Positions 693 through 34,735 of a DNA stretch of 36,736 bases are shown here, piece after piece (the stretch's first letter is position 1; each line of letters starts with the position of its first letter). The notes below the pieces were generated by a model. It was not told where the DNA came from. It was given only the letters and a program-made list of their open reading frames with translations, and ran no database searches. Source of the DNA: a virus. Lineage: Duplodnaviria > Caudoviricetes. The translations under genes and the position numbers were made by a program. The stretch lies in the IMG/VR virus record IMGVR_UViG_3300037462_000677, positions 1-36,736 of that record; one strand, 5' to 3'.

Positions 693-1580
693 ATGGTCGG
701 TATGGAAGTGGGAGGCAGTCTGGACCTATCGGCCTACGAGAGGCCGCACGTTCAGGATATGGCTTCTCCCTTTCGTTATCCGGGGGGCAAGGGCTTCCTG
801 ACCGGCTATCTTGCCGCCAAACTTTCCGAGATCGACGCGACCGAAAGGCACTACGCTGAGCCGTTCTGCGGGGGTGCCGGTGCGGCTGTTAATCTCCTGA
901 AGTCCGGCATCGCGCATGTAATCCATTTGAACGATGCGGACATCCGGATCTATTCGGCCTGGCGGGCGATGTTGATCGAAACAGACCGCTTTCTGGACCG
1001 ATTGCGGAGCGCGAAGGTCGACATGGAGGAATGGTACAGATCAATCGATCTGGTCCAGAACGCCGATAACTTCAAAAATTATTCATTCGAATTGGGCTTT
1101 GCGACGTATTTCGTGAACCGAACGAGCAGGTCTGGGATCATTTTGGGCGCAGGTCCGATCGGCGGCTACACCCAGACCGGGCGCTGGAAGATCGACGCTC
1201 GTTGGTATCGGGACAGCATGTCGTCACGGATTCGCTGGCTCGGAACAATGCGGGATCGAGTCCATTTGACGAATGAAGACGCTTTAGCCTTCATGGCGAG
1301 GTCCAGAACTCGGTTACCCCTTAGGGACTGTCTGATCTTCGTCGATCCGCCTTATGTGCAAGTCGGGTCGCGCCTCTACCTCAACGCGATGAACGAGGCC
1401 AAACATAGCGCCCTTGCCGATATGCTACAGGGAGGGACATTCCCGAATTGGATTCTCACTTACGACAACCATCCCCTGATTCACAAACTGTATGCGCAGC
1501 GCCGGATCGAGACCATTTCCGTGAACTACAGCCTCAGGACCACGCGCAAGGAGAAGGAAGTCCTAGTTCGGTCTTTCTAG
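693..1580 (+). CDS. Dam-like (D12 class) DNA adenine methyltransferase
   Basis: SPFRYPGGKG, YAEPFCGGAG (motif I), FVDPPY (motif IV), WILTYD. Alternative start at ATG 759. Confidence 0.9.
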   Translation: MVGMEVGGSLDLSAYERPHVQDMASPFRYPGGKGFLTGYLAAKLSEIDATERHYAEPFCGGAGAAVNLLKSGIAHVIHLNDADIRIYSAWRAMLIETDRFLDRLRSAKVDMEEWYRSIDLVQNADNFKNYSFELGFATYFVNRTSRSGIILGAGPIGGYTQTGRWKIDARWYRDSMSSRIRWLGTMRDRVHLTNEDALAFMARSRTRLPLRDCLIFVDPPYVQVGSRLYLNAMNEAKHSALADMLQGGTFPNWILTYDNHPLIHKLYAQRRIETISVNYSLRTTRKEKEVLVRSF

Positions 1581-2551
1581 GCCGCCAAGGCAAAGACGCG
1601 GTAATCTGCGAGCCAATTGGTGATCTGGGCTACATTCCCCGCTTCGTCCATGGGCATGCCCTGCTTTGCCAAGGAGATTCCGGCCAGCGCGTGTTTCGGA
1701 GTTGTGCACCTTTCGCAGACATGGCCGTGCTTGTTTGACGCTTGGTTCCAGAGAAGATCATCAACCACTCTAAACGGAATTAGCGTCACAAAATTGTGCT
1801 GTCCGGTCCCAATGTCATCGAAGAAGTCGTTGATGAATTGCCGATATTCAAGGTTTGCCGGTTTCTCAAGCCAGTTGTGACCCGAAGCTAGTTGGCCGAA
1901 CCAGATCGCCGACGGGGGCGGGCGATCTTGGAATGGCCATCCGATCACATCTATTCCGCCATCTTTGGCTTGCGGATTCGCGTGTCGTCCAGGCTTGTCC
2001 CTCGGTGCCAGCCCGATGCCCCAACTTTCCGCCCGCCGCAACGCGTCCAGGATGCTTTCCTTCGTTTCCCTTGGAAAGCCCAGACTGATCGCCGGTCCGC
2101 CGGCGTGACCGGCCACGGCAAGGGTTCCCATAACTTGGTACACCCGGTTCCGGAACCGCGTCAGGATATCTCCCGCTGGAGGGGTAGTGAGTATCGGCGA
2201 CTTGGAAATGTGAGAAGCAATCAAGCAAAGAAGATAGAAGCAAGCGTTCTCACTGTCCGTCGGGACAGTGAACCCGATCTCTTCTCCATCATCGGTCATA
2301 TCGAAGGGATAGGCAGCACCGAGGCTCTTCTTGCGATTTTCAAGTTCGGTTTCGATTTCGGAGCGGAACGCGTCGTCGGCAACGTCGAATTCGGCGATAT
2401 CTTCAGGTTGCTCTTCCTCCAAGGTGCGTCGCCCCCCCGAAAGCTCGTCGAGGCGAGCCTTGCCGAATTCATCGAAAAATGCGCGCAGTTCCAACCAGTC
2501 AAGCTGAACGTCCGCCGCCGCATTTGATGCGGGCAATACGAGCAACGCCAT
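1577..2551 (-). CDS. Hypothetical protein, possible PD-(D/E)xK / Mrr-like nuclease fold
   Basis: 324-aa ORF with KDGGIDVIGW...WFGQLASGHNWLEK, resembling the D-x-G-x-D...Q motif of Mrr-like nucleases. Starts 1 nt after the upstream gene ends. Confidence 0.6.
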   Translation of the reverse strand: MALLVLPASNAAADVQLDWLELRAFFDEFGKARLDELSGGRRTLEEEQPEDIAEFDVADDAFRSEIETELENRKKSLGAAYPFDMTDDGEEIGFTVPTDSENACFYLLCLIASHISKSPILTTPPAGDILTRFRNRVYQVMGTLAVAGHAGGPAISLGFPRETKESILDALRRAESWGIGLAPRDKPGRHANPQAKDGGIDVIGWPFQDRPPPSAIWFGQLASGHNWLEKPANLEYRQFINDFFDDIGTGQHNFVTLIPFRVVDDLLWNQASNKHGHVCERCTTPKHALAGISLAKQGMPMDEAGNVAQITNWLADYRVFALAA

Positions 2552-2552
2552 T

Positions 2553-3689
2553 TTACTTCTTCTCTGCCTTCGAGATCTTTCGCTCCATCACCGCGAGGAT
2601 CGAGTCGGCGCGAACCGAGCAGCTTTGGGCAAATTCAAGAAGTTCCGGTTGGGCCTCGGGGTCATAGTCCGCGGCCGTCTCGAGGCTGACTTTCAGGGTT
2701 GCAGCCGATGCCACGATATTCGAAGCGAACAAACTCGAGCGCGGAGTTGCGGTTACCACCGCGTCCTCCAAATTGCCGCGCTCGGTCAGTTCCCGTAGAG
2801 CGGCTGGGTGCGCAATCACTGCCTTGAGACGGTTCAAATCTTTGGCTTGGGTTTGAATTACCGGATCAACGCCATCTCGCTTTGAACCGTAAAGCCACTT
2901 CAAGAGCCGTCGCAGCTCCTCCACCTTTGCAGGCGGGACCGGATCCACAATCGGGTCAGATGTTCGGGCGGGGCGCTCCATTCCGAGATATGTCGTGAAC
3001 TCTGTATAGGAAAGCGCCGTGTAGAGATGGGAAAAGCTGAAAGACTTCTTGGTGCGCTCGTCGAGATCATAGATCCCCGCGCTTTCTGCCTGGCGTATCA
3101 CGTAGGCGGCCGTGACCATTCGCAGAAGAGTGTCATGCTTGTCCCCCATCCGCGAAGCAATATCGGACAACGAAAGACCGTCGGGCTTCGCTCGTTCGGT
3201 GTCAAGCCAGCGCTGGGCAAATAGGGCCTTGGCATATGCATCCCATGACTGAGGGCCGTTGATATGCTTGAACCCGATAAGGTTCTTCGCCCCGTCTTTG
3301 TCCGCGACGCGGTAGACCAAGATCTTTTGGAACGAAGCCAAAACCTCATCCGCTAGGGTATCCGGTGTCGAAACTCCGCATTCTTTCGCAAGAGCTTTGT
3401 CCCGGAGGCATTTGATCGCTGCCAAGCGACGGTTGCCCTCCAACACCACAAGTCGGTCATTCGCCGCATAGACGATCATCGGTTCGATGCCGATGTAGCC
3501 ATTGAAGCCAAGTGATTGGATCAATTCGCCCAAATCGGCAGTACGATTCAGTTGGATAATGATGGCCTGGTCGGACGTGTTCTCCGGTTCCTTATCCGGA
3601 GTGAAACGCGGATTCTCCCGGTCGAAATCGAGAAGGTCCACCGACACCGGCGTCGGTTTGGAAAGTGGAACGTCATCTTCTAGGGCCAT
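2553..3689 (-). CDS. ParB/Srx-like N-terminal domain protein
   Basis: LLDFDRENPRF, EPMIV, VVLEGNRRLAAIK (ParB GxRR box), then an HTH-like LSDIASRMG. ATG 3689 is preceded by GGAAG. Confidence 0.8.
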   Translation of the reverse strand: MALEDDVPLSKPTPVSVDLLDFDRENPRFTPDKEPENTSDQAIIIQLNRTADLGELIQSLGFNGYIGIEPMIVYAANDRLVVLEGNRRLAAIKCLRDKALAKECGVSTPDTLADEVLASFQKILVYRVADKDGAKNLIGFKHINGPQSWDAYAKALFAQRWLDTERAKPDGLSLSDIASRMGDKHDTLLRMVTAAYVIRQAESAGIYDLDERTKKSFSFSHLYTALSYTEFTTYLGMERPARTSDPIVDPVPPAKVEELRRLLKWLYGSKRDGVDPVIQTQAKDLNRLKAVIAHPAALRELTERGNLEDAVVTATPRSSLFASNIVASAATLKVSLETAADYDPEAQPELLEFAQSCSVRADSILAVMERKISKAEKK

Positions 3690-4019
3690 GGCCGGTCTTC
3701 CATAATCTTCTTTTGGGGTTCGAATCAAAGACCAAACCCCGCGCTGCGACACGCGTTTCAAGCTGTTGCTGGCACCTTGCCCCGACACCGGGTGAATGCC
3801 AACAGCAAACTCGCTCTGGCCATAGTCTCCGGCCGGTTTGTGCGCCGTCGCCGAAGGTCAGTGCGGATCTGGGGCCATCACCGACCGCTGCCAAAAGGCG
3901 CTGACCATGATCAAACCGTCCGCGCAGGCGCTGTTATGTTTCCGAAAGGTACACGCCATGCTTGCTGGGCCACTTCACCCAATCCCTCGTACTTCCAGCC
4001 CGGAATCGCTCCTTGCCGT

Positions 4020-10273: not shown

Positions 10274-13576
<3,303 letters not shown>

Positions 13577-13587
13577 GGCTCTACCCC

Positions 13588-16374
13588 TTAAACCTCAAAT
13601 CTCATCTGACCGCTGCGGTTCGTCAGCGGCGCGGTGGCGGCTTCGCGGGTCAGGTCGGTCCAGTCCGCGATCAGCGCGTTGTAGGCGGTCGCCTCCTTCG
13701 CGTCGCCCCGCTTTTCGCAGATGTTGTAAAGCACATAGGCGAGGTCGCGCACGTCATCCGCCTTGGGGCCAAACTTCTTCAGCATCACCGCCGCCTCATA
13801 GCCGATCCCGTATTTCTCGTGCAGGCGCACCAGATGCTGGCAGCATTCCCAGACGGTCAGGTGACCATCGGCATCTGGCTCCCACTCGGCGTCCATCTCG
13901 TCACGCTTCAGGATCCGCACCTTACCGGCGGCGCTTTCCACGATCCCGGCATGCTTCACGCTTTCGACCGAGATGCCGCGCGCGGTGGCGATGTTGTTCG
14001 CCGTGCCATAGTCGCCCGCCTTCAGCCCGTTCTGTTCGAACCAGGTGATGGCAAAGCGGGTGTCGGCGTCGAACTCGCCCTGGATGCCGCCGAGGTATTC
14101 GTCGAGCTCGCGGTTGATCAGTTGCAGCGCGGCCTTCACCGTCATCGGGCTGTCGTCGGACTCCAGCACCGACTTGTAGCGCGAGAAGACGCCCATGCCG
14201 GGGCCGATGGCCGATTGCGGCATGTCGGCCGGGGCAATGTTGGCGGCCTGAAGCTCGGCGATGGCCGGAGGCAGTTCGCGTTTCAGGGCACGGATGAACT
14301 CGGCCCGTGTGATGACGTCAGCTGACGCTTGCTTTCGCCTGCAAACAATTACTACGGAATTGGCCAGAACGTTCATGCTGACTTTCAGCCCGGTGTCACG
14401 CTCGGTCCTAACAGGCCATGTACCAACAATCTGATATCCAGCCTCAATCACAGCGGCCAAGAAGGTCGCCCACCCGGTAGAGCTAATACCTTCCTCTTGA
14501 ATTTCGCTTTGCTTAAAAGCATAGTAAATTGCAGCCGGGAAATTACGACTGGATTGATCGGCCATAGCCTTTATTGCCTGCCTCATTCCATCCAAGAAAT
14601 GAAGCTCCGCAGCTTCCTTGCTGCCATATCGTGAGGCTGAAGCCACAAGCTCTTCAGCTTTTGGGGTTGCCAGTGATTGGAAAATTTCCGGATAAATGTC
14701 TCCAACATTCTTCTTCAAAAACTCGTAGAAAAAATCTGAAAGGTCAGCATAGTCAATATTGTCGTAATAAGGTGGATCCGTGCTTATTACAGCCCCCTCC
14801 GCATAAATCATTGATTGAGCATCACACTGCTGCTGCGTACCCACTGCGGAAGGCGCAAAGCGGTTCAGGGCCTTTACGATGCTGTAGAGCGACGTTCGAT
14901 AATCACCAGCCATTTCCGAAAACAATCCCGTCTCGGCAAAATCCCACACCATTGGAATCGCCTGGCGACCAAAAAGGTGTACCGCTTGATTAGCCGAGCG
15001 CGACCAGTTGCAGTGTGCATTCGAGATATCGGCCAATCGACTGATACCAAATGCCAAATAAACACTGATTGCTTCGGCGTAAGCGCGAGAGCCAGTCCCA
15101 CCACTCCGCAGCGGCACGTCATCTTCCAATAGATTGGCCCGACGCGCGTCAGCCTCAACCTCGGCGCGGATCTCTCTTACAAGCCGCGACAGAGTATTCA
15201 ATGACGTGAGCTGCCTGTTGGTAAAGAGCTGCCCAAAGTTCTCAATTCCGTAGTTACCGACGTTAACCTTTGACTTTCCTTGAAGTTGCAGTGAAGGTTT
15301 CCAGTCTGGCAGTTGCACTTCGGCTGCACGAACGTGTTGATCGTTCGCGGAGAGGAAGACTCGACCGCGTACGCCGTCCGCGACAATTGCCACCAACCTG
15401 GCTCCCATTCTTCCAGCCTGGCCCATGCGTCGAATGTAGTCGTATGTGATGGCAGAGTCGGAAATCAGGCAGCGAAAACCTTGTCTCTTTCCGGATGTTG
15501 CGCCCAATTCAGCGGCCTTCTTTTCCGAATTAGTCCCTTCGCTTCGAATCCGGAATTCGATGGTTTTCAACACACGATCGATGATTGGCTCGATCCAAAC
15601 TTCGCTTCCTTTCTTTGAAGAGAGCAGAAAGCTCGAAAGCAGAGGCACTTGTACGTCAGAGAATGCGGGATCAGGACTGGGCACTGTTCTGACCCATATC
15701 CAGGCAATGACCTTGCCGAGCTTCTTGGTACTGGACGAGCTGACGCCGACAGGAATTTCAACGGGGGGGTATAAATCACCAAGCTCCTCCAGAGCCCTTT
15801 GTCGAATTAATTCCCCATAATATTCAACATCTTCGGCGATTCCTTCCGCGAATCGATATTGGTTTCGATCCTTTCCACCGGGGTGGACTGGATTCTTCCC
15901 CAAAAATTTCGGCGGGATCTCGATCATCGCCTTACCGATCATCACCGCCACCGGGTTCAGGTCAGAGCCGTACGCAGGCAGACCAAGCCGCTGCGCCTCG
16001 AGCGGGATCGACCCGCCACCCGAGAACGGGTCATAGACCGGCGGGAGCACTCCGCCGCAGGACCGCCGAATTTCCGCGCGCGCACGCTCCAGGACCTCTT
16101 CGTTTGTTGAGTTCTCCCAAGTCACTAAGTCCTCAATGATGGCAAACAGCCGCTGCCTCTCGCGTTCTTGATCAGCATGGGTCGGGAATTGGTCAGGATG
16201 GCTAGACGGATCATCAACCAACTGCCCAAATAGAACGGCCCGACAAGCCGCCAACGGACGTCTTGCCCAATAAAGGTGCAAGGTTGATGGATGACCATGC
16301 CGGATAGACTTTTCACGAATGGAGGCTTTGTTGATTGCCTCTAATGGTAGTGCGACCTCAATCAGTTTCTTCAT
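13588..16374 (-). CDS. DUF1156-containing DNA adenine methyltransferase
   Basis: LHLYWARRPLAACRA, DPFSGGGSIPLEA (motif I), TDPPYYDNIDYADLSDFF (motif IV). Confidence 0.9.
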   Translation of the reverse strand: MKKLIEVALPLEAINKASIREKSIRHGHPSTLHLYWARRPLAACRAVLFGQLVDDPSSHPDQFPTHADQERERQRLFAIIEDLVTWENSTNEEVLERARAEIRRSCGGVLPPVYDPFSGGGSIPLEAQRLGLPAYGSDLNPVAVMIGKAMIEIPPKFLGKNPVHPGGKDRNQYRFAEGIAEDVEYYGELIRQRALEELGDLYPPVEIPVGVSSSSTKKLGKVIAWIWVRTVPSPDPAFSDVQVPLLSSFLLSSKKGSEVWIEPIIDRVLKTIEFRIRSEGTNSEKKAAELGATSGKRQGFRCLISDSAITYDYIRRMGQAGRMGARLVAIVADGVRGRVFLSANDQHVRAAEVQLPDWKPSLQLQGKSKVNVGNYGIENFGQLFTNRQLTSLNTLSRLVREIRAEVEADARRANLLEDDVPLRSGGTGSRAYAEAISVYLAFGISRLADISNAHCNWSRSANQAVHLFGRQAIPMVWDFAETGLFSEMAGDYRTSLYSIVKALNRFAPSAVGTQQQCDAQSMIYAEGAVISTDPPYYDNIDYADLSDFFYEFLKKNVGDIYPEIFQSLATPKAEELVASASRYGSKEAAELHFLDGMRQAIKAMADQSSRNFPAAIYYAFKQSEIQEEGISSTGWATFLAAVIEAGYQIVGTWPVRTERDTGLKVSMNVLANSVVIVCRRKQASADVITRAEFIRALKRELPPAIAELQAANIAPADMPQSAIGPGMGVFSRYKSVLESDDSPMTVKAALQLINRELDEYLGGIQGEFDADTRFAITWFEQNGLKAGDYGTANNIATARGISVESVKHAGIVESAAGKVRILKRDEMDAEWEPDADGHLTVWECCQHLVRLHEKYGIGYEAAVMLKKFGPKADDVRDLAYVLYNICEKRGDAKEATAYNALIADWTDLTREAATAPLTNRSGQMRFEV

Positions 16375-16808
16375 TTGACTTTCTCCAAGAGCGCCATCTC
16401 GAAGGCTTCCTCCATTATGGAAAAGCTCTGCGGCGGATTGAAGGAGAACTGTTGCTTCAGAACGGACAGCTCCGCAGGTATAGCGAAGAGGGTCGGCGCA
16501 GAGATCCTTATGGCATTAACTTCACCGAGCTGCCCTACGTACCTTATCAGCTCATTTTCAGTGATCGCACCCAGGGTTCGGATTTCAACCGCCTCGCGCA
16601 GGTTAATACTGGTAATGCCCTCAACCTCCGCAAAGCCAATTATAGCTTTCACAGGGACACCGACGTAGAAGAATATCCGTCGAGGCAGTTTTGTTGGTCG
16701 TCTTTTTCTGAAGAATACGCGAACTTGCCCTTTGCGAAGAGCTTCCTCCCACCTGCCCTCGAAGGAGTAGACGACCGATGAATTGTTATTCTTGATTGTG
16801 GCAGTCAT
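16371..16808 (-). CDS. ASCH/PUA-like domain protein
   Basis: YSFEGRWEEALRKGQVRVFFRKR...FFYVGVPVKAIIGFAEV...FNPPQSF follows the ASCH pattern; ATGA overlaps on both sides. Confidence 0.7.
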   Translation of the reverse strand: MTATIKNNNSSVVYSFEGRWEEALRKGQVRVFFRKRRPTKLPRRIFFYVGVPVKAIIGFAEVEGITSINLREAVEIRTLGAITENELIRYVGQLGEVNAIRISAPTLFAIPAELSVLKQQFSFNPPQSFSIMEEAFEMALLEKVK

Positions 16809-19800
16809 TTCGGCCCCTCTGCCCGCTCGAGCAGGCGTTTTAGATTGAATTGTATGGCGGTGTGTTCGAACGAGGGTTCATGGTCCGACAGCGCCCCCCG
16901 CACATACCGCGGTTCTTGCGCGTAGCCACTCTCGATCTGCACGATGGCCAGAATGTATTTGCCCGGTTCGTGGAGGGACGTGATGATCTCTTGCCGGGTC
17001 AGCATGACGGTATCGGCGCCGTCGATGCGACCCTTGACCTCGATGAAGCGCAGATGGCCAGAGCGGGGATCGAAGGAGGCAATGTCATAGCCTACCTTCT
17101 GCGCCGACACATCGCGCGGCTCATTGCCCAGCGCCCGCTCGGCTTTGATGACCGCTTCCATGGCCTTCAACTCGCTGATCCGACGAGCCTCCGGGTCTTC
17201 GGCAAAGGCGCTGGGCTTGGCCCCAGTTGCGGCGGCAGCCTTCGCCAGCAGCACCCCTTTTGGCACGACGACCATGCCACCCCGCACCCGCGGCGGCTGG
17301 GCAGAGATGAAGCGCTCCTTCTCCAGCAGCTCCATCCGGCGTTTCAGGCGGTCAGCCAAGTCCTCGGCCCTGCGCTCGGCGTTCTGCCAGTTCAAGCGGG
17401 TCTTCTTCCCGGCCTTTTCATCCTCGCGCAGTTCGGCGGCCCGGTTGTCCCAGAAGTTGATCTCCTTCTTGAGACGGGCCTTCACCTCCTGCTCGACCTT
17501 GGCGATCTCGGGCAGGCGTCTTGCCTTCACTTCGGCCACATGGCTCTGCGCCAGATCGACGGTAGCGAAGCGGATCGCAGCCTTTTCCAGATCGTTCCGC
17601 AACCAGTCCTCGTGCAGCTTGTCGGAAACCAGTGCGATTTCCTCGGCCGTGGCGGGGCGAAGGTTAAGGTGTGGGGCGATCCCCGCATTGGCCGCTTTCC
17701 CTGTCTTGTCGATCGAGGCGAACTGCAGTTTTTCCGAGATGATGTGAGGTTTGCCGGTACTGGTCGGGCGGCCGTCCTGGACGCTGTGCTCCAGCAGGAA
17801 GATGGCCGACAAGTCCTGGCCAAGGTCGGTTTCATCGACCATGACGGCACCTTGCCTCATCAGGTGGTCGTGCTGTTCGCGCACGATGCTGATGACAGCT
17901 TCCAGCAATGGGTGGCCCGGACAGACGAAGGTCGCCACCGGCTGCTGGTTCACCTTGCCCTTCTCGAAGCAGATGCGTTCATACTTCTTCTGAACTGGCG
18001 AGCCAGTGCCAATCTGCCGGTCACGTTCGCGGATGCTGACTGGGACATGAATGATCTCCCACCGCCCCTCCTCCCGCGGCTTGATCTGACCACCGAGGCG
18101 CTTGAACGCCTCGACAAAGAAGCTCTGGATATGGTGCGGCTGCAGGCGCTGGGCCTCAGCGCGCTCCATGTCGATGCGGATTTCTTGCACCTTGGCGGCT
18201 GGCATCGTGTCGTTGGTCAGCGCCCGGCGTGCCAGCAGATCAAGCAGATGCTGCTGATCAACGGCCCCATCGACGGCCTGGAACAGCCGGGCCTTCACAT
18301 CAGGCTGCTCGCCATACTGGATGGCCTCGAACAACAGATCCTTCAGCGCCGTGCCATCGAACAACTCGCCAAGTACGTCGTAGACTCGCCCGCCCAGCGC
18401 CTCGCGCGCAGCCTCCAACTTTTCCAGAAGCCGGGCATAGACCTCGCCCTCACGCGTATCAGCCGCCACGAGGTTCCAAAGGTGGCAGACCTCGGTCTGG
18501 CCAATCCGGTGAATACGACCGAACCGCTGTTCAATCTTGTTCGGGTTCCAGGGGAGGTCGTAATTCACCATCAGGTGACCACGCTGGAGGTTCACACCTT
18601 CACCCGCCGCGTCGTTCGCTATCAACACCAGCATGTCGCGGTCCTGCATGAAGCGCTCGACGATCTTCCTCCGATCCTCGCGGGACACGCCACCATGGAT
18701 CACCTCGACAGCATCAGCACGACCAAGGCGCGACCTCACACGATCATGCAGGTAGTAGAGTGTGTCCTTCGGCTCGGTGAAGATGATGAGCTTCCGACGG
18801 TTGCCGTGGGAGTCGACCATCAGCTCGTCATCGAGGATGCGGTTCAGCTGCGACCACTTGGTGTCCTGGCCGGAGCTGAGAACGCCCAGCGCCATTCGCT
18901 CCAAGCCTTGCAGCGTTTCGACCTCAAGGGCGAGCTGATCGACGGTTTCTGCCGTGGTAGCGGTCGTGGAAATCCGGTCCTCGATGTCGTCGATCTCGTC
19001 CTGACCAAGTTCCTCAAGGTTCTGCAGCGCATCATCCGGCACATCAGGGACATCGAAACCGGACCTCTTGCCGCGGACCATCAGCCGCGCCTCGGCCAGT
19101 TCTGCCTCAAGCCGTTCGCGCCGCCTTTTCAGCGACTGGTAAATCGCGGCTGGTGACGATGCGAGACGACGCTGAAGGATTTGAAGGGCAAAGCCGACGT
19201 TATTCCGTTTCTTGCCATCCTCGGCCGCGAAGCGCTGGACCCGGTTCATCTCGTTGCGGACGTACTCAGTCACAGCGGCGTAGAGCGCGGCCTCTTCGGG
19301 CGACAGCTCATACTTGACCGTGTAGGCGCGACGCTCGGGGAATAGCGGGCGGCCGTCGAAGCGCAGCAGCTCCTCTTTCGTCAGGCGCCGCATCATGTCG
19401 GCGGTATCCGCGTAATGCACGCCATCACGGAACCGGCCCTCGAACCGGTCACCATCCAGCAGCGCCATGAACAGCTGGAAGTCCTGCTCATGCCCATTGT
19501 GCGGCGTTGCCGACATCAACAGCAGGTGACGGCAGGCTTCCCCGAGTTTCTGACCAACGCGATACCGTTTGGTGTACTTGGCTTCACCGCCGAAATACGT
19601 CGCGGACATGCGGTGAGCTTCGTCACAGATGATCAGATCCCACTCCGCCGCCTGTGCCAGCTTGTCCTGCAGTTCCTCATTCCGGGCTAGAACATCAAGC
19701 CGAGCGATCAGTCGATTGCGGTCGCTGAAGGGATTTCCTGACCGGGAGTTTTCGATCATGTCACGGGTCAAGATGTCGAACTCCAGCCCGAACTTTTCCC

Positions 19801-20314
19801 CAAGTTCATCTTGCCACTGTTCGACCAGACTACCGGGTGCAACGACCAGACAGCGTTCAAGATCGCTACGGGCGATCAATTCCTTGATCAGCAGTCCCGC
19901 CATGATCGTCTTTCCGGCCCCGGGGTCGTCGGCGAGAAGAAAACGCAACGGCTGGCGCGGCAGCATTTCGCCGTAGACTGCAGAAATCTGGTGAGGAAGC
20001 GGATCAACCAGGCTGGTATGAATAGCGAGATAGGGGTCGAAATAATGCGCCAGCTTTATACGATTGGCCTCGGTTACAAGGCGAAGAAGATCGCCATCCG
20101 CATCGAATGACCATGCACGACCACGGGAATCCATCTCAATTCTGGCCTGATCATCACGATACAGGGTTGTTTCAGCGACACCGCCACCGGGCACGCGATA
20201 GACAAGGTTTATTGCCTGATCCCCAATCCACTCGACAGAAACAACCTCGACGGGCTGGCCCGGAACGACGCCGCGCAATTGAGCGCCATTCTTGATATCT
20301 TCCAGAACCGTCAT
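16805..20314 (-). CDS. SNF2-family helicase with C-terminal DUF3883 nuclease domain
   Basis: LLADDPGAGKT, ICDEAH, SATPH, GEGVNLQ, QRFGRIHRIGQ; C-terminal GYDIAS...RFIEVKG; GGAGG before ATG 20314. Confidence 0.92.
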   Translation of the reverse strand: MTVLEDIKNGAQLRGVVPGQPVEVVSVEWIGDQAINLVYRVPGGGVAETTLYRDDQARIEMDSRGRAWSFDADGDLLRLVTEANRIKLAHYFDPYLAIHTSLVDPLPHQISAVYGEMLPRQPLRFLLADDPGAGKTIMAGLLIKELIARSDLERCLVVAPGSLVEQWQDELGEKFGLEFDILTRDMIENSRSGNPFSDRNRLIARLDVLARNEELQDKLAQAAEWDLIICDEAHRMSATYFGGEAKYTKRYRVGQKLGEACRHLLLMSATPHNGHEQDFQLFMALLDGDRFEGRFRDGVHYADTADMMRRLTKEELLRFDGRPLFPERRAYTVKYELSPEEAALYAAVTEYVRNEMNRVQRFAAEDGKKRNNVGFALQILQRRLASSPAAIYQSLKRRRERLEAELAEARLMVRGKRSGFDVPDVPDDALQNLEELGQDEIDDIEDRISTTATTAETVDQLALEVETLQGLERMALGVLSSGQDTKWSQLNRILDDELMVDSHGNRRKLIIFTEPKDTLYYLHDRVRSRLGRADAVEVIHGGVSREDRRKIVERFMQDRDMLVLIANDAAGEGVNLQRGHLMVNYDLPWNPNKIEQRFGRIHRIGQTEVCHLWNLVAADTREGEVYARLLEKLEAAREALGGRVYDVLGELFDGTALKDLLFEAIQYGEQPDVKARLFQAVDGAVDQQHLLDLLARRALTNDTMPAAKVQEIRIDMERAEAQRLQPHHIQSFFVEAFKRLGGQIKPREEGRWEIIHVPVSIRERDRQIGTGSPVQKKYERICFEKGKVNQQPVATFVCPGHPLLEAVISIVREQHDHLMRQGAVMVDETDLGQDLSAIFLLEHSVQDGRPTSTGKPHIISEKLQFASIDKTGKAANAGIAPHLNLRPATAEEIALVSDKLHEDWLRNDLEKAAIRFATVDLAQSHVAEVKARRLPEIAKVEQEVKARLKKEINFWDNRAAELREDEKAGKKTRLNWQNAERRAEDLADRLKRRMELLEKERFISAQPPRVRGGMVVVPKGVLLAKAAAATGAKPSAFAEDPEARRISELKAMEAVIKAERALGNEPRDVSAQKVGYDIASFDPRSGHLRFIEVKGRIDGADTVMLTRQEIITSLHEPGKYILAIVQIESGYAQEPRYVRGALSDHEPSFEHTAIQFNLKRLLERAEGPK

Positions 20315-20604
20315 CTTCCCTCCGCCCACTTGCACCGGGATCGAATCGGCGCAGCACTCCAGTCTACTCGAAACGCATGGTCAAACAGCCTGAAAGCCCT
20401 GCAATTTCTATCAGATGGACGTTAGACGCCGTTGCATCCGGGAACAAGCGGCGACCGTCGCCGAAAGCCGATGATCTAAGGTCTGGCTACCCCTCTGAGC
20501 CTACCACTGGTCTGACCTCCCCCCTCCTCTGGTTCCTCCCCGGCCCTGAACGTATGCGGGGGGGCGCAGCGCGGCGGTTCGCTAGCGCGAGGCGTTTTCA
20601 CCGG

Positions 20605-20763
20605 GGAAGCCAGGCGGAAGCCACCTTGCGACCCGGAGCCGAAATTCATGAGTCAGATCAGCGGTTTGCATAATCACGATCTGGCCGGGGTGGATTCCCG
20701 GCGGGAAGCCAAGGAAGCCACCTCCGGGGAAGCCAGGTGGCGGGAAGCCACCCCGGAAAGCCA
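20605..20763 (+). repeat. Cluster of GGAAGCCA octamers
   Basis: Exact copies at 20605, 20616, 20704, 20713, 20728 and 20743; variant GAAAGCCA at 20756. Confidence 0.85.
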
Positions 20764-20801
20764 ATGCCTTAGAAGCTGTTGAATCCGCTTCACTTTTCCG
20801 G

Positions 20802-22177: not shown

Positions 22178-23547
22178 ACGCGCCCCTCCTGCCTGGCCGG
22201 ATCGAGCATTGGCCCCTCACCCGCCTCCGGCCCTACACCCGAAATGCCAAGACCCACGATGCCGATCAGGTCGCAAAGATCGCCGCCAGCATGGCCGAGT
22301 TCGGCTGGACCGTCCCGTGCCTCGTCGCCGCCGACGGCGAATTGATCGCGGGCCATGGTCGCGTCCTGGCCGCCGCGCAACTGGGGCTGGCCGAGGCGCC
22401 GGTCATCGTCCTGGGCCACATGACTGAGGCGCAGCGCCGCGCCTACCGGATCGCCGACAACAAGCTGACCGAACTGGGCGGGTGGGACGAGGCGCTGCTG
22501 CTCGAGGAGTTGCGCGCGCTGATGGCCGAGGATTTCGACCTCGGGCTGATCGGGATCCCCGAGGAAGAGCTGGACGCGCTGTTGAACGATGTCGACGATC
22601 GCGCGCCCATCGACGATGACGCAGCCGACGCAATCCCCGAGCCCCCGGCCGATCCGATCACCCGGCCCGGCGACATCTGGCGGCTCGGGCATCACCGGCT
22701 GATCTGCGGCGATGCGACCGACCCGGCCGTGGTGGCGCGGCTGATGGATGGGGCGCAGGCAGCGCTGATGTTCACCTCCCCGCCCTACGCCCAGCAGCGC
22801 GACTATGGCGCGGCGAAGGAAAAGGTCGGCGATTGGGATGCGCTGATGCAGGGCGTCTTCGGCTCGGCATCCGTCACCGCCGATGCCCAGCTGCTGGTGA
22901 ACCTCGGCCTCGTCCACCGCGATGGCGAGTGGATCCCCTATTGGGAAGGCTGGGTTGACTGGATGCGCGCGCAGGGCTGGCGGCGCTTCGGCTGGTATGT
23001 CTGGGACCAGGGGCCCGGCCTGCCCGGCGACTGGAACGGCCGCCTCGCGCCGTCACACGAGTTCATCTTCCACTTCAACCGCCAGCCCCGGAAGCCGAAC
23101 AAGACGGTCGAAAGCAAGCACGCGGGCGAAACCCTCGGCGGCGGCGGCCTGCGCGGGGCCGACGGCACCGTCCACCGCAAGACGGGCTACGGCAACGCGA
23201 TCCAGAGCCACCGCATCCCCGACTCTGTGTTCCGCATCATGCGCCACAAAGGGGGCTTGGGCGCGGCCGGATCGCACCCGGCCGTGTTCCCGGTGGCGCT
23301 GGTCGAGGCGGTGCTGGAGGCCTTCACCGATCCCGGCGACCTGGTGTTCGAACCCTTCTGCGGTTCGGGGACGCAGCTGATCGCCGCAGAACGCACCGGG
23401 CGGCGCTGCTCCGCTGTGGAGCTGGACCCGGTCTACTGCGACGTGGCGGTGCGGCGTTGGGAGTTGGCGACTGGGAGGAAGGCAAGTCGGACCAACGGCC
23501 ATGATGAAACTCAGACCCAGCAGCGCCGCAAACGGAAACCGGCATGA
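22174..23547 (+). CDS. ParB-like domain fused to N4/N6 DNA methyltransferase (SPPY)
   Basis: LIAGHGR...RIADNK, FTSPPY, HPAVFP, FEPFCGSGT; ATGA overlap. Confidence 0.92.
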   Translation: MNAPLLPGRIEHWPLTRLRPYTRNAKTHDADQVAKIAASMAEFGWTVPCLVAADGELIAGHGRVLAAAQLGLAEAPVIVLGHMTEAQRRAYRIADNKLTELGGWDEALLLEELRALMAEDFDLGLIGIPEEELDALLNDVDDRAPIDDDAADAIPEPPADPITRPGDIWRLGHHRLICGDATDPAVVARLMDGAQAALMFTSPPYAQQRDYGAAKEKVGDWDALMQGVFGSASVTADAQLLVNLGLVHRDGEWIPYWEGWVDWMRAQGWRRFGWYVWDQGPGLPGDWNGRLAPSHEFIFHFNRQPRKPNKTVESKHAGETLGGGGLRGADGTVHRKTGYGNAIQSHRIPDSVFRIMRHKGGLGAAGSHPAVFPVALVEAVLEAFTDPGDLVFEPFCGSGTQLIAAERTGRRCSAVELDPVYCDVAVRRWELATGRKASRTNGHDETQTQQRRKRKPA

Positions 23548-23753
23548 CCCAGTCACACCGCATGTCACTGGTCGAGGCCGCGACCAATGTGATCGTCGGC
23601 TACGCCCTCGCAGTCGGCATCCAGATCGTGGTGTTTCCGGTCTTCGGCATCCACATCGCGCTGGGCGATCAGCTGGCCATCGGCCTCGCGTTCACCGGCG
23701 TATCGCTGGTGCGGGGATATGTGCTGCGCAGGCTGTTCGAGAGATTCCGTTGA
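23544..23753 (+). CDS. Small membrane protein
   Basis: 69 aa with two hydrophobic segments; ATGA overlap. Confidence 0.75.
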   Translation: MTQSHRMSLVEAATNVIVGYALAVGIQIVVFPVFGIHIALGDQLAIGLAFTGVSLVRGYVLRRLFERFR

Positions 23754-23778
23754 CGGGAAATCCTCAGTTCTCTACCGT
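23750..23778 (+). promoter_or_regulatory. Sigma70-like promoter of the HNH moron
   Basis: TTGACG (23750-55), 17-nt spacer, TACCGT (23773-78). Confidence 0.55.
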
Positions 23779-23784
23779 TCGGTC

Positions 23785-23985
23785 AAACGAAGGCTCAGAA
23801 GTGAGCTTTGACGAGGGCATAAGCCCCGTCAGGTCGGCAGTGAAAACCCTGACGGCATCGTTGTACGGACTGCGGAACCACGAACCATCGGGTCTCGCGC
23901 AAGCATAAGCTTCCCGCCGGGGAGCGCCCCTCCAAGGCGCCGCGCATTCGCTTCTCACGAAGTTGAATGGAGACCCCTTGGATGG
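23785..23985 (+). ncRNA. Putative structured ncRNA/leader associated with the HNH gene
   Basis: At least six hand-verified stems, two hairpins sharing a GC-AUAA-GC cap, a possible pseudoknot, and a closing stem covering the SD and ATG. Confidence 0.55.
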
Positions 23986-24362
23986 GAAAGCTGTCGAATA
24001 TTCGCCGAACCAAAATGCTGGCGCAGGGCGGCCGGTGCTACTACTGCGACCTGCCGATGTGGGATCCGGAGATGGATCCTGCCGTGCCCGAATTCTGCCA
24101 GGCACCAGCCTTGCGGAAGTATCTTCGCTGTACCGCAGAGCACCTGCGCCCCCGCTCCGACGGCGGTGCCGACGCGCCCACAAATATCGTCGCTGCCTGC
24201 TGGTACTGCAACACAAGGCGGCATCACAGAAAGGAGCCACCCTCCCCGGACGCCCATCGCGCACGCGTCCGAGAGAGGATGGCAAATGGGAAATGGCTGG
24301 CAGCGCACCTGAAAGACATCAGGAGCGCTGTCGGCTTGGGTTTGAGCACCCGAAGGGTCTGA
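23982..24362 (+). CDS. HNH endonuclease (Zn-binding)
   Basis: CYYC...TAEHL..RSDGGAD...NIVAACWYCN; GGAGA 8 nt before ATG 23982 (alternative start 23967). Confidence 0.88.
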   Translation: MGKLSNIRRTKMLAQGGRCYYCDLPMWDPEMDPAVPEFCQAPALRKYLRCTAEHLRPRSDGGADAPTNIVAACWYCNTRRHHRKEPPSPDAHRARVRERMANGKWLAAHLKDIRSAVGLGLSTRRV

Positions 24363-24376
24363 TCCTGCAAACCTGA

Positions 24377-24931
24377 TCAAGGCAGCTTGTAGACCGTCCC
24401 CCTACCCTCGACCTTCTCGGCGGTGATGGGCAGACCCAGCTTCTTCTTCAGCGCCCCCGAGATGCAGCCGCGGACGGTATGGGCCAGCCATCCGGAGGCC
24501 TCGACCATCTCGGCTACCGTCGCACCCTCGGGACGCTGGAGCATGGCAATGATCTGCGCCTGCTTGGTGCCAGCGCGGATGGCGACCGCTTTCGTGGTGT
24601 CAGTTTCGTCGGGCGCCTGCACCGGTTCCGGCTTCGACTTCCGCAAGCCTGCAACGGTACTGGCCACCACCGGTTCGATCCCGACGGCCTCCAACCCGGC
24701 CTCGGTGGCGATCAGCGTGGTGCCATGGCCGTCGCCGGTTTCGCGCCACATCGGCTCGCCGCGCCGCAGGTTGGCCTCGACCTCTTCAAGCCAGCCGCGG
24801 GCAATCATCTTGCCGACGACCATCTTGGCCGCGGCGCCGACCAGCCCCTCGGGCAGCGGCAGGGCGAGGTTCCCCGGCCGGGTCGCGGCGCGGGACAGGA
24901 TCAGGGACTGGGTGTCGGACGGGGTGGTCAT
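24377..24931 (-). CDS. DUF3489-like wHTH protein
   Basis: RAGTKQAQIIAMLQRPEGAT...GWLAHTVRGCISGALKKKLGL; GGAGG RBS. Confidence 0.85.
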   Translation of the reverse strand: MTTPSDTQSLILSRAATRPGNLALPLPEGLVGAAAKMVVGKMIARGWLEEVEANLRRGEPMWRETGDGHGTTLIATEAGLEAVGIEPVVASTVAGLRKSKPEPVQAPDETDTTKAVAIRAGTKQAQIIAMLQRPEGATVAEMVEASGWLAHTVRGCISGALKKKLGLPITAEKVEGRGTVYKLP

Positions 24932-25026
24932 CAGGGCCTCCGTGGCTGTGGGCGCGCGCTGTGCGCGCCTTCTACGGAGGCAAGCCCCGTCCTCGGGCGG
25001 GGCGGCCGTCGCGCCGCGTGGGCGCG

Positions 25027-33850: not shown

Positions 33851-34735
33851 CTATTTTTGAAAGAGCTCCGCCAAGCGGTTCGCAATCCATTCAAACGACT
33901 GTTTCGGGGTTTCGAATGCCGGGACATTCGAGAGAGGATCAAAAATGGCTTTAAGCACATATGTAGAATTCTCGAGGCCAGCACTTCTTTCTCCCATTTC
34001 GAAAATCGATGTCGCGTCCTGAAAACGAATGATTGCAGCTGGATGGTCACTTCCTTTACCAAGCGTCTCCTCGTTAAGGAAAAGCCAAGACAAGGCAACA
34101 CAAACCGCTAAAACGCGGAACTCCCGCTCGATGCCTGAACCCGCTTCGTCAAGTATCCAGCGAGTAGCAAAATTATCGGCCTGGAATTCCTGCCTCAGTC
34201 TTTGTTCAACCGGTATGTATTTCTCATGCTGAAGGTGTACATGCCCGATCTCATGCAAAAGCACCCAAGACATTGCACCAAAGAACAAATTGTTCACACG
34301 CCCTTCCGATGTATCAGGCCTGACGTTGATGTCAGGTGGCTGAATGTTGATCGGCCATTCGCGATCACTGCGAAAAAGACTTCTAGCGTAGTCCAGATGC
34401 TCATTAATCTGCATCTTCGCGCAGTGTTCCCCAATGTTGATATGCGTCTCTGCTTTGTCGACATCCCTTTGGGAACGCGACGCAATGTCAGATATATGAA
34501 ATGCCGCGTAAGAGAGACACCATAGGCTGGCCAAACCCGCGTAGGTGGCTGTAACCCTTGTTTCGCTGGGGTATGCGTGGAAGTTGGCCTCACCGGCCAT
34601 GGCTGTTAGTTGCCATCGCGCCTTATTGAAAATCTCATAGGCGAGATCCGGCCCACGTTCAGGAGCTATGTTGAAAGGAGTTCTCTTTGCGAATTGGAAC
34701 AAAGGTTCCATCAGGGTCTGAGTGTCTCTTGCCAT
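33851..34735 (-). CDS. Lit-like (peptidase U49) zinc metalloprotease
   Basis: WVLLHEIGHVHLQH and RQEFQADNFA; 294 aa; AT-rich and antisense within the morphogenesis operon. Confidence 0.75.
   Translation of the reverse strand: MARDTQTLMEPLFQFAKRTPFNIAPERGPDLAYEIFNKARWQLTAMAGEANFHAYPSETRVTATYAGLASLWCLSYAAFHISDIASRSQRDVDKAETHINIGEHCAKMQINEHLDYARSLFRSDREWPINIQPPDINVRPDTSEGRVNNLFFGAMSWVLLHEIGHVHLQHEKYIPVEQRLRQEFQADNFATRWILDEAGSGIEREFRVLAVCVALSWLFLNEETLGKGSDHPAAIIRFQDATSIFEMGERSAGLENSTYVLKAIFDPLSNVPAFETPKQSFEWIANRLAELFQK

What the first reader, a model, noticed from the sequence alone, without database searches (positions are those of the whole stretch)
23750..24362. Self-contained moron: promoter, ~200-nt highly structured RNA and small HNH nuclease, a candidate RNA-associated nuclease system
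Seen after TTGACG-N17-TACCGT: hairpin AAGGCTCA-GAAG-TGAGCTTT (23790-809); GGGC-ATAA-GCCC (23815-26) and AAGC-ATAA-GCTT (23901-12) with the same cap; stem CCGTCAGG/CCTGACGG (23826-33/23848-55) whose loop GCAGT can pair with ACTGC (23869-73) as a pseudoknot; an alternative pairing of CGTCA with TGACG (23809-13); CGCC-GGGG-AGCG-CCCC-..-GGCG (23915-39); CATTCGCTTC-TCAC-GAAGTTGAATG (23945-69); and a closing stem CCATC-GGGTCTC (23885-96) with GAGACCC..GATGG (23970-85) that buries the SD and ATG of a 126-aa Zn-HNH gene with basic termini. I do not recognise the RNA family, and the protein has no RuvC, so it is not IscB. Inferred: an RNP nuclease, an RNA antitoxin or a phage-triggered translational switch releasing a toxic nuclease.
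Basis: partly seen in the sequence, partly recalled or inferred. Interest (0 to 1): 0.85.

Follow-up and report, generated by a model that had tools for sequence, protein, structure and literature searches.

The report
RNA switch gating a prophage nuclease
A conserved, intricately folded RNA not listed in the Rfam catalogue sits in front of a small DNA-cutting enzyme gene in bacterial prophages and other mobile DNA, and is predicted to flip between a shape that hides the ribosome's landing site and one that frees it, which would likely keep the nuclease silent until a trigger such as virus infection.

Summary
The cassette is real: a promoter, a ~200-nt structured leader and a 126-aa Zn-HNH gene fill a hypervariable prophage slot (13 of 88 alleles). 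The leader covaries strongly (46 homologues; 42 independent compensatory events against a null mean of 3.7). It had no Rfam match, and every intact motif hit was followed by this HNH. The conserved fold is a 5' four-way junction plus a core: a long-range helix (paired in 149 of 150 cells across three subfamilies), a second four-way junction and a different, less certain pseudoknot. The core competes with hairpins that bury the Shine-Dalgarno site. Start regions of 84 family members are harder to open than those of 80 neighbouring genes (11.1 vs 7.6 kcal/mol). Best reading: a timP-like translational switch that gates a nuclease toxin, probably for defence, with no antitoxin gene found. RNA-antitoxin binding stays possible; RNA guiding and terminase-cofactor roles are unlikely. 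Transcription, toxicity, trigger and defence are untested.

The parts
23750..23778 (+). Predicted sigma-70-type promoter (TTGACG-N17-TACCGT); the -35 box overlaps the stop codon of the upstream DUF7220 gene
   Evidence: Sequence; TTGAC in 45 of 46 and TAnnnT in 39 of 46 homologues while the spacer varies; below the scanner threshold
23786..23862 (+). 5' four-way junction, 77 nt: P1 23786-90/23858-62, P2 23791-97/23802-08, P3 23810-18/23823-30, P4 23833-38/23851-56
   Evidence: 87-95% of cells paired and 19 of 26 pairs with double changes; 27 independent compensatory events; it is the MFE when folded alone, z -4.1; coordinates
23866..23868 (+). 5' strand of a candidate pseudoknot that pairs with the P9 loop (23917-19)
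   Evidence: 3 of 4 pairs invariant in the Rhodobacter-type set, so no covariation within it. Between subfamilies one pair is GC in 21 and AU in 9 of 30, and Erythrobacter-type members have a fully compensated 4-bp version; only 2 of 4 pairs hold in the third subfamily
23872..23876 (+). 5' strand of long-range helix PX (pairs with 23947-51), predicted anti-anti-SD element
   Evidence: 99.6% of cells paired in 46 sequences; 149 of 150 cells in 30 sequences from three subfamilies, with the register shifted by hand for 5 of them
23877..23893 (+). Hairpin P6' with a bulged A; its 3' strand overlaps the anti-SD segment
   Evidence: 96.5% of cells paired, AU/GC double change in 12 of 46; 3 independent events
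23890..23896 (+).
   Evidence: 79.5% of cells paired in fixed register; predicted at p>0.5 in 18 of 46, p 0.99 in the window
23897..23945 (+). 3' four-way junction (P7 closing P8, P9, P10)
   Evidence: 98-100% of cells paired; 11 of 15 pairs with double changes across subfamilies
23946..23968 (+). Hairpin P11 next to the SD; its base competes with PX
   Evidence: 98.3% of cells paired; p>0.5 in 43 of 46; in two other subfamilies the same hairpin covers the SD itself
23969..23972 (+). Shine-Dalgarno-like GGAG
   Evidence: Sequence; purine-rich at this position in alignment A2
23982..24362 (+). 126-aa basic (pI 9.9) Zn-HNH nuclease with C19/C22/C73/C76 and E53-H54, N68, N77, H81
   Evidence: fold like the Cas9/McrA/Gme HNH domains, best Z 7.6, no Foldseek hit at E<=0.001
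23544..23753 (+). Left flank, DUF7220 (prophage backbone, not part of the cassette)
24377..24934 (-). Right flank, DUF3489, convergent (prophage backbone, not part of the cassette)

Best explanation
This is a stand-alone cassette in which a conserved, covarying ~200-nt leader RNA precedes a small HNH nuclease gene and is predicted to act as a two-state translational switch that likely keeps a DNA-damaging nuclease silent until a trigger, most likely phage infection, favours the open state. OFF state (predicted lowest energy): hairpin P11, and in part of the family the anti-SD helix, bury the ribosome-binding region. ON state (inferred from covariation): the long-range helix PX takes the 5' strand of P11, hairpin P6' takes the anti-SD, and a pseudoknot to the P9 loop probably stabilises this core, which frees the SD. 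The nuclease made would nick or cut DNA and abort the infection, protecting lysogens. Shown: the cassette, its conservation, the covariation, the tight RNA-protein linkage, the mutual exclusivity of the helices, and intact catalytic residues. Predicted: the energies and SD occlusion. Inferred and untested: transcription, switching in vivo, toxicity, the trigger, and the defence role.
For: (1) Structure. The revised model has 95% of cells paired and 28 of 59 pairs with double changes, 0 of 500 shuffles as high. Counted on a tree of the HNH coding sequences, 42 compensatory branch events against a null mean of 3.7, maximum 13 in 1000. GU 204 vs AC 28 puts the structure on the sense strand. (2) Two exclusive folds are both conserved: PX 99.6% paired and P11 98.3%, sharing one strand. 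Across three subfamilies PX is paired in 149 of 150 cells with ten sequence variants, and in the two other subfamilies the competing 3' hairpin covers the SD. (3) Family-wide occlusion. Opening the start region costs a median of 11.1 kcal/mol in 84 non-redundant HNH leaders against 7.6 in 80 neighbouring genes (p 6e-8). Against shuffled leaders the median z is +1.75 vs -0.26 (p 1e-12). (4) Dedicated linkage. 26 of 27 viral motif hits are followed by this HNH, and the 27th is cut by the contig end. 21 of 22 hits for a distant leader type are too. All 3 model hits in 151 Paracoccaceae-family genomes and both strong hits in 151 genomes of a second family abut it. Two rhizobial plasmid loci outside the training set score 88 and 74 bits. 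The Rhodobacter-type leader marks one protein clade. (5) No protein partner: 125 neighbouring ORFs from 33 loci show no recurring antitoxin or immunity family. (6) Defence-like setting. Distribution is patchy: 5 of 151, 2 of 151, and 1 of 401, that one being the centre genome. The same slot elsewhere holds HamC-like, PDC-S44 and Phd/YefM genes. This prophage also carries HmaABC and a Lit-like gene. No match in 50,697 isolated phage genomes. (7) Precedent: timP needs a pseudoknot plus a long-range pairing that opens an RBS stem-loop (PMC13000454, abstract and first part of the Discussion read).
Against: No expression data: the four RNA runs laid are contigs, one flat over 13.8 kb, so transcription is not shown. 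Nearest-neighbour folding gives the ON core about 0 probability in all 46 leaders, a median 10.3 kcal/mol above the MFE, with pseudoknots and tertiary contacts not modelled. Something must pay for that gap, and nothing is identified. The anti-SD helix is predicted in only 18 of 46 Rhodobacter-type leaders, and their SD is unpaired with median probability 0.41; many of these have zOpen near 0. PX has only 1 independent compensatory event and the pseudoknot 0 within the 46-sequence set, so their support rests on a few between-subfamily transitions. The control genes had partly coding upstream regions, and starts were picked by rule. No PADLOC or NCBIfam family claims the protein (best PADLOC E 0.001). 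Only 3 of the 35 alternative cargo ORFs scanned from the slot are recognisably defence or TA genes. The core is more sequence-conserved (median 84% identity) than the protein (62%), which fits protein or ligand binding as well as switching.
Confidence: 0.45

Rival explanations
1. Type III-like toxin-antitoxin pair: the leader accumulates as a separate ~190-nt RNA (by processing, or by Rho termination and trimming), binds the HNH protein and inhibits it; host shut-off lets the RNA decay and frees the nuclease, as in AvcID or AbiF/RCd22. It could coexist with the translational block.
For: Same layout of promoter, RNA and toxin gene with no protein partner. The RNA core is highly conserved with invariant loop bases. 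The proteins are very basic (median pI 10.2, n=192). Leader type tracks protein clade. Precedents read: PMC12373285 abstract and two Results sections; PMC10511110 abstract and Introduction.
Against: No intrinsic terminator between RNA and gene (no U-tract in alignment A2), unlike RCd22. No tandem repeats. The conserved fold runs into the SD, and its alternative pairings involve the SD. Leaders in distant homologues are much shorter and differ in architecture while the protein stays similar.
Confidence: 0.22
2. Selfish free-standing homing endonuclease whose leader merely dampens translation, as the RBS hairpins of T4-family endonucleases do; it spreads by cutting empty alleles.
For: It occupies the same slot in 13 of 88 alleles, across flanks whose DUF7220 protein is 53-95% identical to the window's, and 26 empty alleles exist. 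RBS-sequestering hairpins are known for T4-family enzymes (PMC2988022, passages).
Against: No separate DNA-binding domain (126 aa, HNH fold over residues 1-103), whereas the T4 mob enzymes have one. The family occurs in unrelated settings: plasmids, chromosomal intergenic spots, next to integrases, resolvases and HipBA, and on ~10-kb filamentous-phage-like contigs. It is absent from isolated phages. A multi-junction two-state RNA is far more than damping needs.
Confidence: 0.12
3. Ordinary type I toxin-antitoxin system: the leader is the toxin mRNA's inhibitory fold, and a small antisense antitoxin that I did not find completes the pair (as TimR or RalA do).
For: The leader behaves like type I toxin leaders. 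RalR/RalA is a prophage DNase with a trans-encoded RNA antitoxin (PMC4041452, search listing only).
Against: No room for a divergent gene: the -35 box overlaps the upstream stop codon and only 14 nt separate the downstream stop codons. No antisense promoter scored. The best complement elsewhere in the window is 13 nt, E 0.09, and none recurs across loci. The structure is on the sense strand.
Confidence: 0.1
4. RNA-guided nuclease of the OMEGA kind (IshB-like): the RNA is a scaffold with a guide.
For: The HNH fold is closest to the Cas9 and IscB HNH domains (Z 6-7.6; partial NCBIfam IscB hit, 30 bits against a cut-off of 175). The RNA is multi-stem and lies upstream.
Against: P1 starts about 7 nt after the -10 box and the 3' end runs into the SD, so there is no terminal variable guide. 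PLMP-like motif in 0 of 199 proteins. No RuvC. No conserved 3' end and no recurring transposase among neighbours. No Rfam match.
Confidence: 0.05
5. Terminase cofactor (gp74-like packaging HNH) with an incidental leader.
For: It lies about 1.3 kb upstream of the small terminase gene in this prophage; one other locus has a terminase small subunit nearby (L068).
Against: 75 of 88 alleles of this prophage slot lack it. Most other loci have no terminase among the nearest ORFs. 0 matches in 50,697 phage genomes.
Confidence: 0.02

Closest known systems
timP mRNA of the timPR type I toxin-antitoxin system (PMC13000454: abstract and Discussion part 1 read; PMC11228461: abstract and opening text read)
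   Same: A long toxin leader with mutually exclusive folds; the active fold needs a pseudoknot plus a long-range pairing that opens the RBS stem-loop; the inactive fold is the more stable one.
   Different: The toxin here is a Zn-HNH nuclease, not a small membrane protein. No antitoxin sRNA gene was found. The fold has two four-way junctions and no sequence relation was tested or seen. It sits on mobile elements of several proteobacterial groups.
AbiF/RCd22 of C. difficile prophage phi027 (PMC12373285: abstract and two Results sections read)
   Same: Prophage moron of promoter, structured RNA and nuclease-type toxin gene on one transcript; the RNA is tied to one protein family.
   Different: RCd22 ends in an intrinsic terminator, carries two abiF motifs (RF03085) and binds the toxin. 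Here there is no terminator, no repeat and no Rfam hit, the control point looks translational, and binding is untested.
AvcID type III system (PMC10511110: abstract and Introduction read)
   Same: A single non-repeated RNA paired with an enzyme gene; release on phage infection is a plausible parallel.
   Different: AvcD is a dC deaminase inhibited by direct binding. Here the enzyme is an HNH nuclease and the conserved RNA helices overlap the ribosome-binding site.
IscB/IshB with omega-RNA (PMC11610941: passages read)
   Same: A structured RNA upstream of an HNH of the Cas9/McrA structural type.
   Different: No RuvC, no PLMP motif, 126 aa against about 180 (IshB) or 400 (IscB), no guide position, no transposon ends.
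RBS-sequestering hairpins of T4-family homing endonucleases (PMC2988022: passages read)
   Same: RNA structure hides the RBS of a nuclease gene.
   Different: Those are single hairpins bypassed by a nested late promoter, in lytic phages, on enzymes with DNA-binding domains. This is a multi-domain two-state RNA with its own upstream promoter, absent from isolated phage genomes.
Small prophage HNH nickases such as Gme HNH (PDB 4H9D; PMC3592412: abstract read)
   Same: Similar size, a [CxxC]2 zinc site and HNH residues; top Foldseek row (E 0.007).
   Different: Those lie next to cos and terminase as packaging-region genes. This family is accessory, leader-linked and only 22% identical to 4H9D.

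Membership tests
Rfam 15 RNA families (including C4, abiF, HEARO-type models if present) | Score at or above the family gathering threshold | tested here: not met
   0 hits in the window; at E<=10 in 23600-24500 only 4 weak unrelated hits, none near its threshold; no hit on the leader in 20 homologous loci
IscB (OMEGA) | Split RuvC plus HNH, about 400 aa | tested here: not met
   126 aa, HNH only; 30 bits against a cut-off of 175
IshB (OMEGA) | N-terminal PLMP domain with HNH, about 180 aa (size from PMC11610941; PLMP in IshB is recalled, not read) | tested here: not met
   P[LI]MP in 0 of 199 proteins; the zinc-binding region starts at residue 19
IscB/IshB (OMEGA) | Variable guide at the RNA's 5' end and RNA-guided cleavage | tested here: inconclusive
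   No room for a 5' guide if the predicted promoter is used; the start site is not mapped and cleavage is not testable here
Type I toxin-antitoxin (timPR-like) | Toxin mRNA leader that sequesters the RBS in alternative folds | tested here: met
   By prediction and covariation only:
Type I toxin-antitoxin (timPR-like) | Antisense antitoxin sRNA complementary to the toxin mRNA | tested here: inconclusive
   None found in the window or within 2.5-3 kb flanks; a distant trans-encoded RNA in host genomes was not searched
Type I or III toxin-antitoxin | The protein is toxic | not testable with these tools
   Catalytic and zinc motif found in 166 of 192 full-length homologues by regex; activity unknown
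Type III toxin-antitoxin (AbiF/RCd22 type) | Intrinsic terminator between RNA and toxin gene | tested here: not met
   No + strand terminator-like site in 23400-24700; no U-tract after P11 in alignment A2
Type III toxin-antitoxin (AbiF/RCd22, AvcID) | RNA binds and inhibits the toxin protein, also in trans | not testable with these tools
   No RNA-protein modelling or binding assay is available here
Terminase-associated HNH (gp74-like) | Core packaging gene next to terminase in all relatives | tested here: not met
   Absent from 75 of 88 alleles of the slot; 0 hits in 50,697 phage genomes
Free-standing homing endonuclease (T4 mob-like) | HNH fused to a distinct DNA-binding region | tested here: not met
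   No second domain in Pfam or in the model
Free-standing homing endonuclease (T4 mob-like) | Site-specific cutting of empty alleles and biased inheritance | not testable with these tools
   Empty alleles exist (26 of 88); cleavage unknown
Catalogued anti-phage systems (PADLOC 2.0) | Full-length match to a system protein model | tested here: not met
   Only weak partial HNH-motif hits; best for the window protein E 0.001

The most novel reading that the evidence does not exclude
A one-gene anti-phage system in which the sensor is the RNA itself: a riboswitch-like leader that recognises an infection signal (a phage protein, RNA or small molecule) and switches on translation of a lethal nuclease, with no protein sensor and no separate antitoxin, spread over hundreds of proteobacterial HNH clusters in several leader architectures.
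Probability: 0.2. Interest if true: 0.9.

Novelty: new variant of a known kind. Interest (0 to 1): 0.66.

Why it matters
The RNA family is not in Rfam 15 and was not found in my literature searches. It is tied to a large, unstudied HNH family: 340 clusters at 50% identity with E<=1e-30. At minimum this is a new structured-RNA and nuclease module with a precise, testable two-state model. It extends structural switching of toxin mRNAs, shown for the membrane toxin TimP, to a nuclease on mobile elements. If the switch responds to infection it would be an immune sensor made of RNA and an orphan-riboswitch candidate with an unusual output. If the RNA binds the protein instead, it would be a new type III-like toxin-antitoxin family with an HNH toxin. 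Either result can be reached with a 610-bp construct.

Tried and rejected
Rfam at gathering and E-value thresholds: nothing on the leader. ARAGORN on 10 loci: the 5' four-way junction is not called as tRNA or tmRNA. My first structure model paired 23863-68 with 23888-93 (P5) and put a small hairpin at 23872-81. It scored well overall, but that P5 had no double change and the small hairpin was 65% paired, so I replaced it with PX, P6' and the pseudoknot; P5 may still be an alternative pairing. RNA-seq: 22 runs listed, none holding half of the words; the 4 laid were contigs and cannot show expression. Two DNA patterns found nothing (mis-specified). A loose pattern for the distant leader type gave 120 matches; none of the rows I could see (the output was cut) had the HNH, and they looked like chance coding matches. 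So whether that short leader type also serves other genes is open. One weak model hit in the second genome family (E 0.008, partial, no HNH) and one (E 0.002, partial) look like chance. Models R1 and R2 do not detect the short leaders of distant homologues; homology of those leaders to this RNA is not established, although they have their own conserved hairpin (6 of 8 pairs with double changes, n=23). No trans-antisense partner found. Foldseek gave no hit at E<=0.001 and VIA-align no Z>=8. Literature: 10 searches found no description of this RNA or system. A 2026 language-model ncRNA preprint has no 'HNH' in its main text (supplements closed). Fremin 2023 (PMC10690425) lists about 30 candidate RNAs upstream of HNH genes. 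Of the six I checked, three are from gut Firmicutes phages and three have no host; all are 53-113 nt. Its alignments could not be read, so an overlap cannot be excluded.

Full report
Setting. The window is a 36.7-kb virus record of a lambda-type prophage: integrase, gpA terminase, lambda portal, major capsid E. Its closest HNH relatives lie in Paracoccaceae genomes. The finding lies between a DUF7220 gene, whose stop codon overlaps the -35 box, and a convergent DUF3489 gene. I fetched 106 loci with the DUF7220 gene. After dropping duplicates and 8 loci without DUF3489 in range, 88 distinct alleles remained: 26 empty, 13 with this cassette, 49 with other cargo. The query favours close relatives. 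Of 35 alternative cargo ORFs scanned, three are recognisably defence or toxin-antitoxin genes (HamC-like, PDC-S44, Phd/YefM) and most are unknown. The prophage also carries HmaABC and a Lit-like gene. 'Moron' is therefore correct.

Observation. The promoter misses the scanner's threshold, but both boxes are conserved at 17-18 nt spacing in 46 homologues (45 of 46 and 39 of 46) while the spacer drifts.

The protein. It is a 126-aa basic HNH with invariant E53-H54, N68, C73, C76, N77, R80 and W105 in 46 aligned relatives. The model is confident (pLDDT 87) and resembles the HNH domains of Cas9, McrA, IscB and the Gme nickase without a decisive match. The family is large: 105 close proteins, and 340 clusters at E<=1e-30 in the 50% library. 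It is patchy (5 of 151 and 2 of 151 genomes in two families, 1 of 401 across the class). It is present on 13 plasmids and absent from 50,697 isolated phage genomes. No defence or NCBIfam model claims it. In 33 diverse loci the 125 nearest ORFs show no recurring partner; they include integrases, a resolvase, TnsA, HipBA, RES, EVE-HNH, methylases and ordinary chromosomal genes (ORFs called by a crude rule).

The RNA. I aligned 46 leaders whose proteins are 52-98% identical to the window's. RNAalifold gave 23 of 55 pairs with double changes. The revised model has a 5' four-way junction (P1-P4), then a core: helix PX closes hairpin P6' and a second four-way junction (P7-P10), with a candidate pseudoknot from just upstream of PX to the P9 loop. 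It has 95% of cells paired and 28 of 59 pairs with double changes; slid controls give 37-43%. To allow for kinship I counted compensatory changes on a tree built from the coding sequences: 42 events over these helices and P11, against a null mean of 3.7. G-U pairs outnumber A-C 204 to 28, so the structure is on the sense strand. Two more distant subfamilies (Erythrobacter-type and a second type found in metagenomes, Paracoccaceae and rhizobial plasmids) keep the core: 18 of 29 pairs with double changes in 30 sequences, and PX paired in 149 of 150 cells with the register moved by hand for five. The pseudoknot is fully compensated in the Erythrobacter type, but only 2 of 4 pairs hold in the other; it is the weakest part of the model.

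Two states. In the two distant subfamilies the competing 3' hairpin covers the SD directly. Energy models favour the closed forms: the core lies a median 10.3 kcal/mol above the MFE with near-zero probability, P11 forms in 43 of 46, and the anti-SD helix in 18 of 46 (0.99 in the window). In stepwise folding of the window's leader, P6' and the 3' junction form before the SD is made, and the anti-SD helix takes over afterwards. Across the whole family, including short leaders that my models do not detect, the start region is harder to open than in neighbouring genes: median 11.1 vs 7.6 kcal/mol, 84 vs 80, p 6e-8; 56 of 84 vs 16 of 80 exceed their shuffled leaders by z>1. The effect is weaker in the Rhodobacter-type subset, and the controls are imperfect.

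Linkage. The RNA was not found without the nuclease, apart from two weak partial model hits that look like chance: 26 of 27 viral pattern hits (the other cut by a contig end), 21 of 22 for a distant leader type (the other near a contig end), 3 of 3 and 2 of 2 strong model hits in two sets of 151 genomes. The two Paracoccaceae HNH genes missed by model R1 carry the second-type leader. Two rhizobial plasmid loci not used in training score 88 and 74 bits. On a fast protein tree the 18 Rhodobacter-type leaders form one clade (support 86). These searches sample collections and do not prove absence elsewhere.

Mechanism. The simplest reading that uses all of this is a cis translational switch: closed by default, and opened when the PX/P6'/pseudoknot core is stabilised. 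timP is the closest working precedent: its active form needs a pseudoknot and a long-range pairing that opens a more stable RBS stem-loop, and its authors leave a ligand trigger open (PMC13000454). Unlike timPR, no antitoxin gene fits in the 610-bp cassette and none was found nearby. That a nuclease so guarded is toxic and serves defence is inference from its residues, patchy spread and neighbours. I put the switch itself at about 0.7 and the full defence mechanism at 0.45. The main rival is a type III-like RNP (AbiF/RCd22, AvcID). It fits the conserved core and the basic protein but lacks a terminator, and the two models can coexist. Homing, a hidden type I antitoxin, RNA guiding and a packaging role rank lower, for the reasons given under rivals.

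Novelty. No Rfam family. No description in 10 literature searches of an open-access library (listed under Tried and rejected); subscription papers and unreadable supplements (Fremin 2023 alignments, the 2026 preprint's files) could hold the motif. The scan's own index had no look-alike by DNA or protein and no note on this genome. It did hold notes on other structured leaders before unrelated phage HNH genes, which supplied the 'passenger' and 'homing' rivals. Verdict: a real, apparently undescribed RNA family dedicated to an unstudied nuclease family, working like a toxin-mRNA switch; a new variant of a known kind, with a 0.2 chance of being an RNA-sensor defence system. There is no experimental or expression evidence yet.

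Noticed in passing
window 10274-20335 (-): Complete Hma defence system (HmaA helicase, HmaB methylase, HmaC ATPase) with a small 145-aa ORF between HmaA and HmaB that resembles PDC-M11B, inserted in the prophage.
   Followed up: partly
window 33851-34735 (-): Lit-like peptidase U49 gene on the opposite strand within the morphogenesis region (113 bits against an NCBIfam cut-off of 274; PADLOC Lit E 1.5e-30): a second likely defence moron.
   Followed up: partly
window 693-3788: D12-class methylase with two opposite-strand ORFs, one partly like PD-Lambda-5_A/PDC-M38A; lower GC (54-58%) than the prophage body.
   Followed up: no
L381, L384, L392, L403, L408-L410, L412, L414, L464 (slot between DUF7220 and DUF3489): A recurring ~308-nt alternative cargo with its own promoter-like motif and a small unannotated ORF; no Pfam or PADLOC hit.
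   Followed up: partly
L097-L114, L116 (contigs mostly 6-14 kb): Filamentous-phage-like contigs (TraX-like and repressor-like neighbours by my reading) carry the same HNH family behind a shorter three-hairpin leader in which an upstream segment is complementary to the SD region.
   Followed up: partly
L026, L028, L032, L161, L169, L175 (Acidovorax-type): These leaders have no obvious Shine-Dalgarno sequence, yet L026's start region is among the most occluded relative to shuffles (z 6.5).
   Followed up: no
L144, L150, L155, L167 upstream of the HNH: An upstream loop segment and the region just before the start codon change together, seen by eye, suggesting a long-range start-site block in this subfamily; not counted formally.
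   Followed up: partly
window 23786-23790/23858-23862 and 23872-23876/23947-23951: In most homologues the strands of P1 and PX have the same sequence, so the 5' domain's closing strand could cross-pair with PX (columns 87-90 with 101-104 and 13-16 with 185-188): a possible relay linking 5'-domain folding or processing to the switch.
   Followed up: partly
L010/L054, L156, L191: Broken or truncated copies of the HNH: a frameshift near the start in L010/L054 and a 54-aa frame in L156, both with the leader retained, and an 89-aa frame in L191.
   Followed up: no
window 20580-20800: Short GC-rich repeats upstream of the first DNA methylase gene; they give the best (13-nt, E 0.09) complement to the leader's P9 region, probably chance.
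   Followed up: partly
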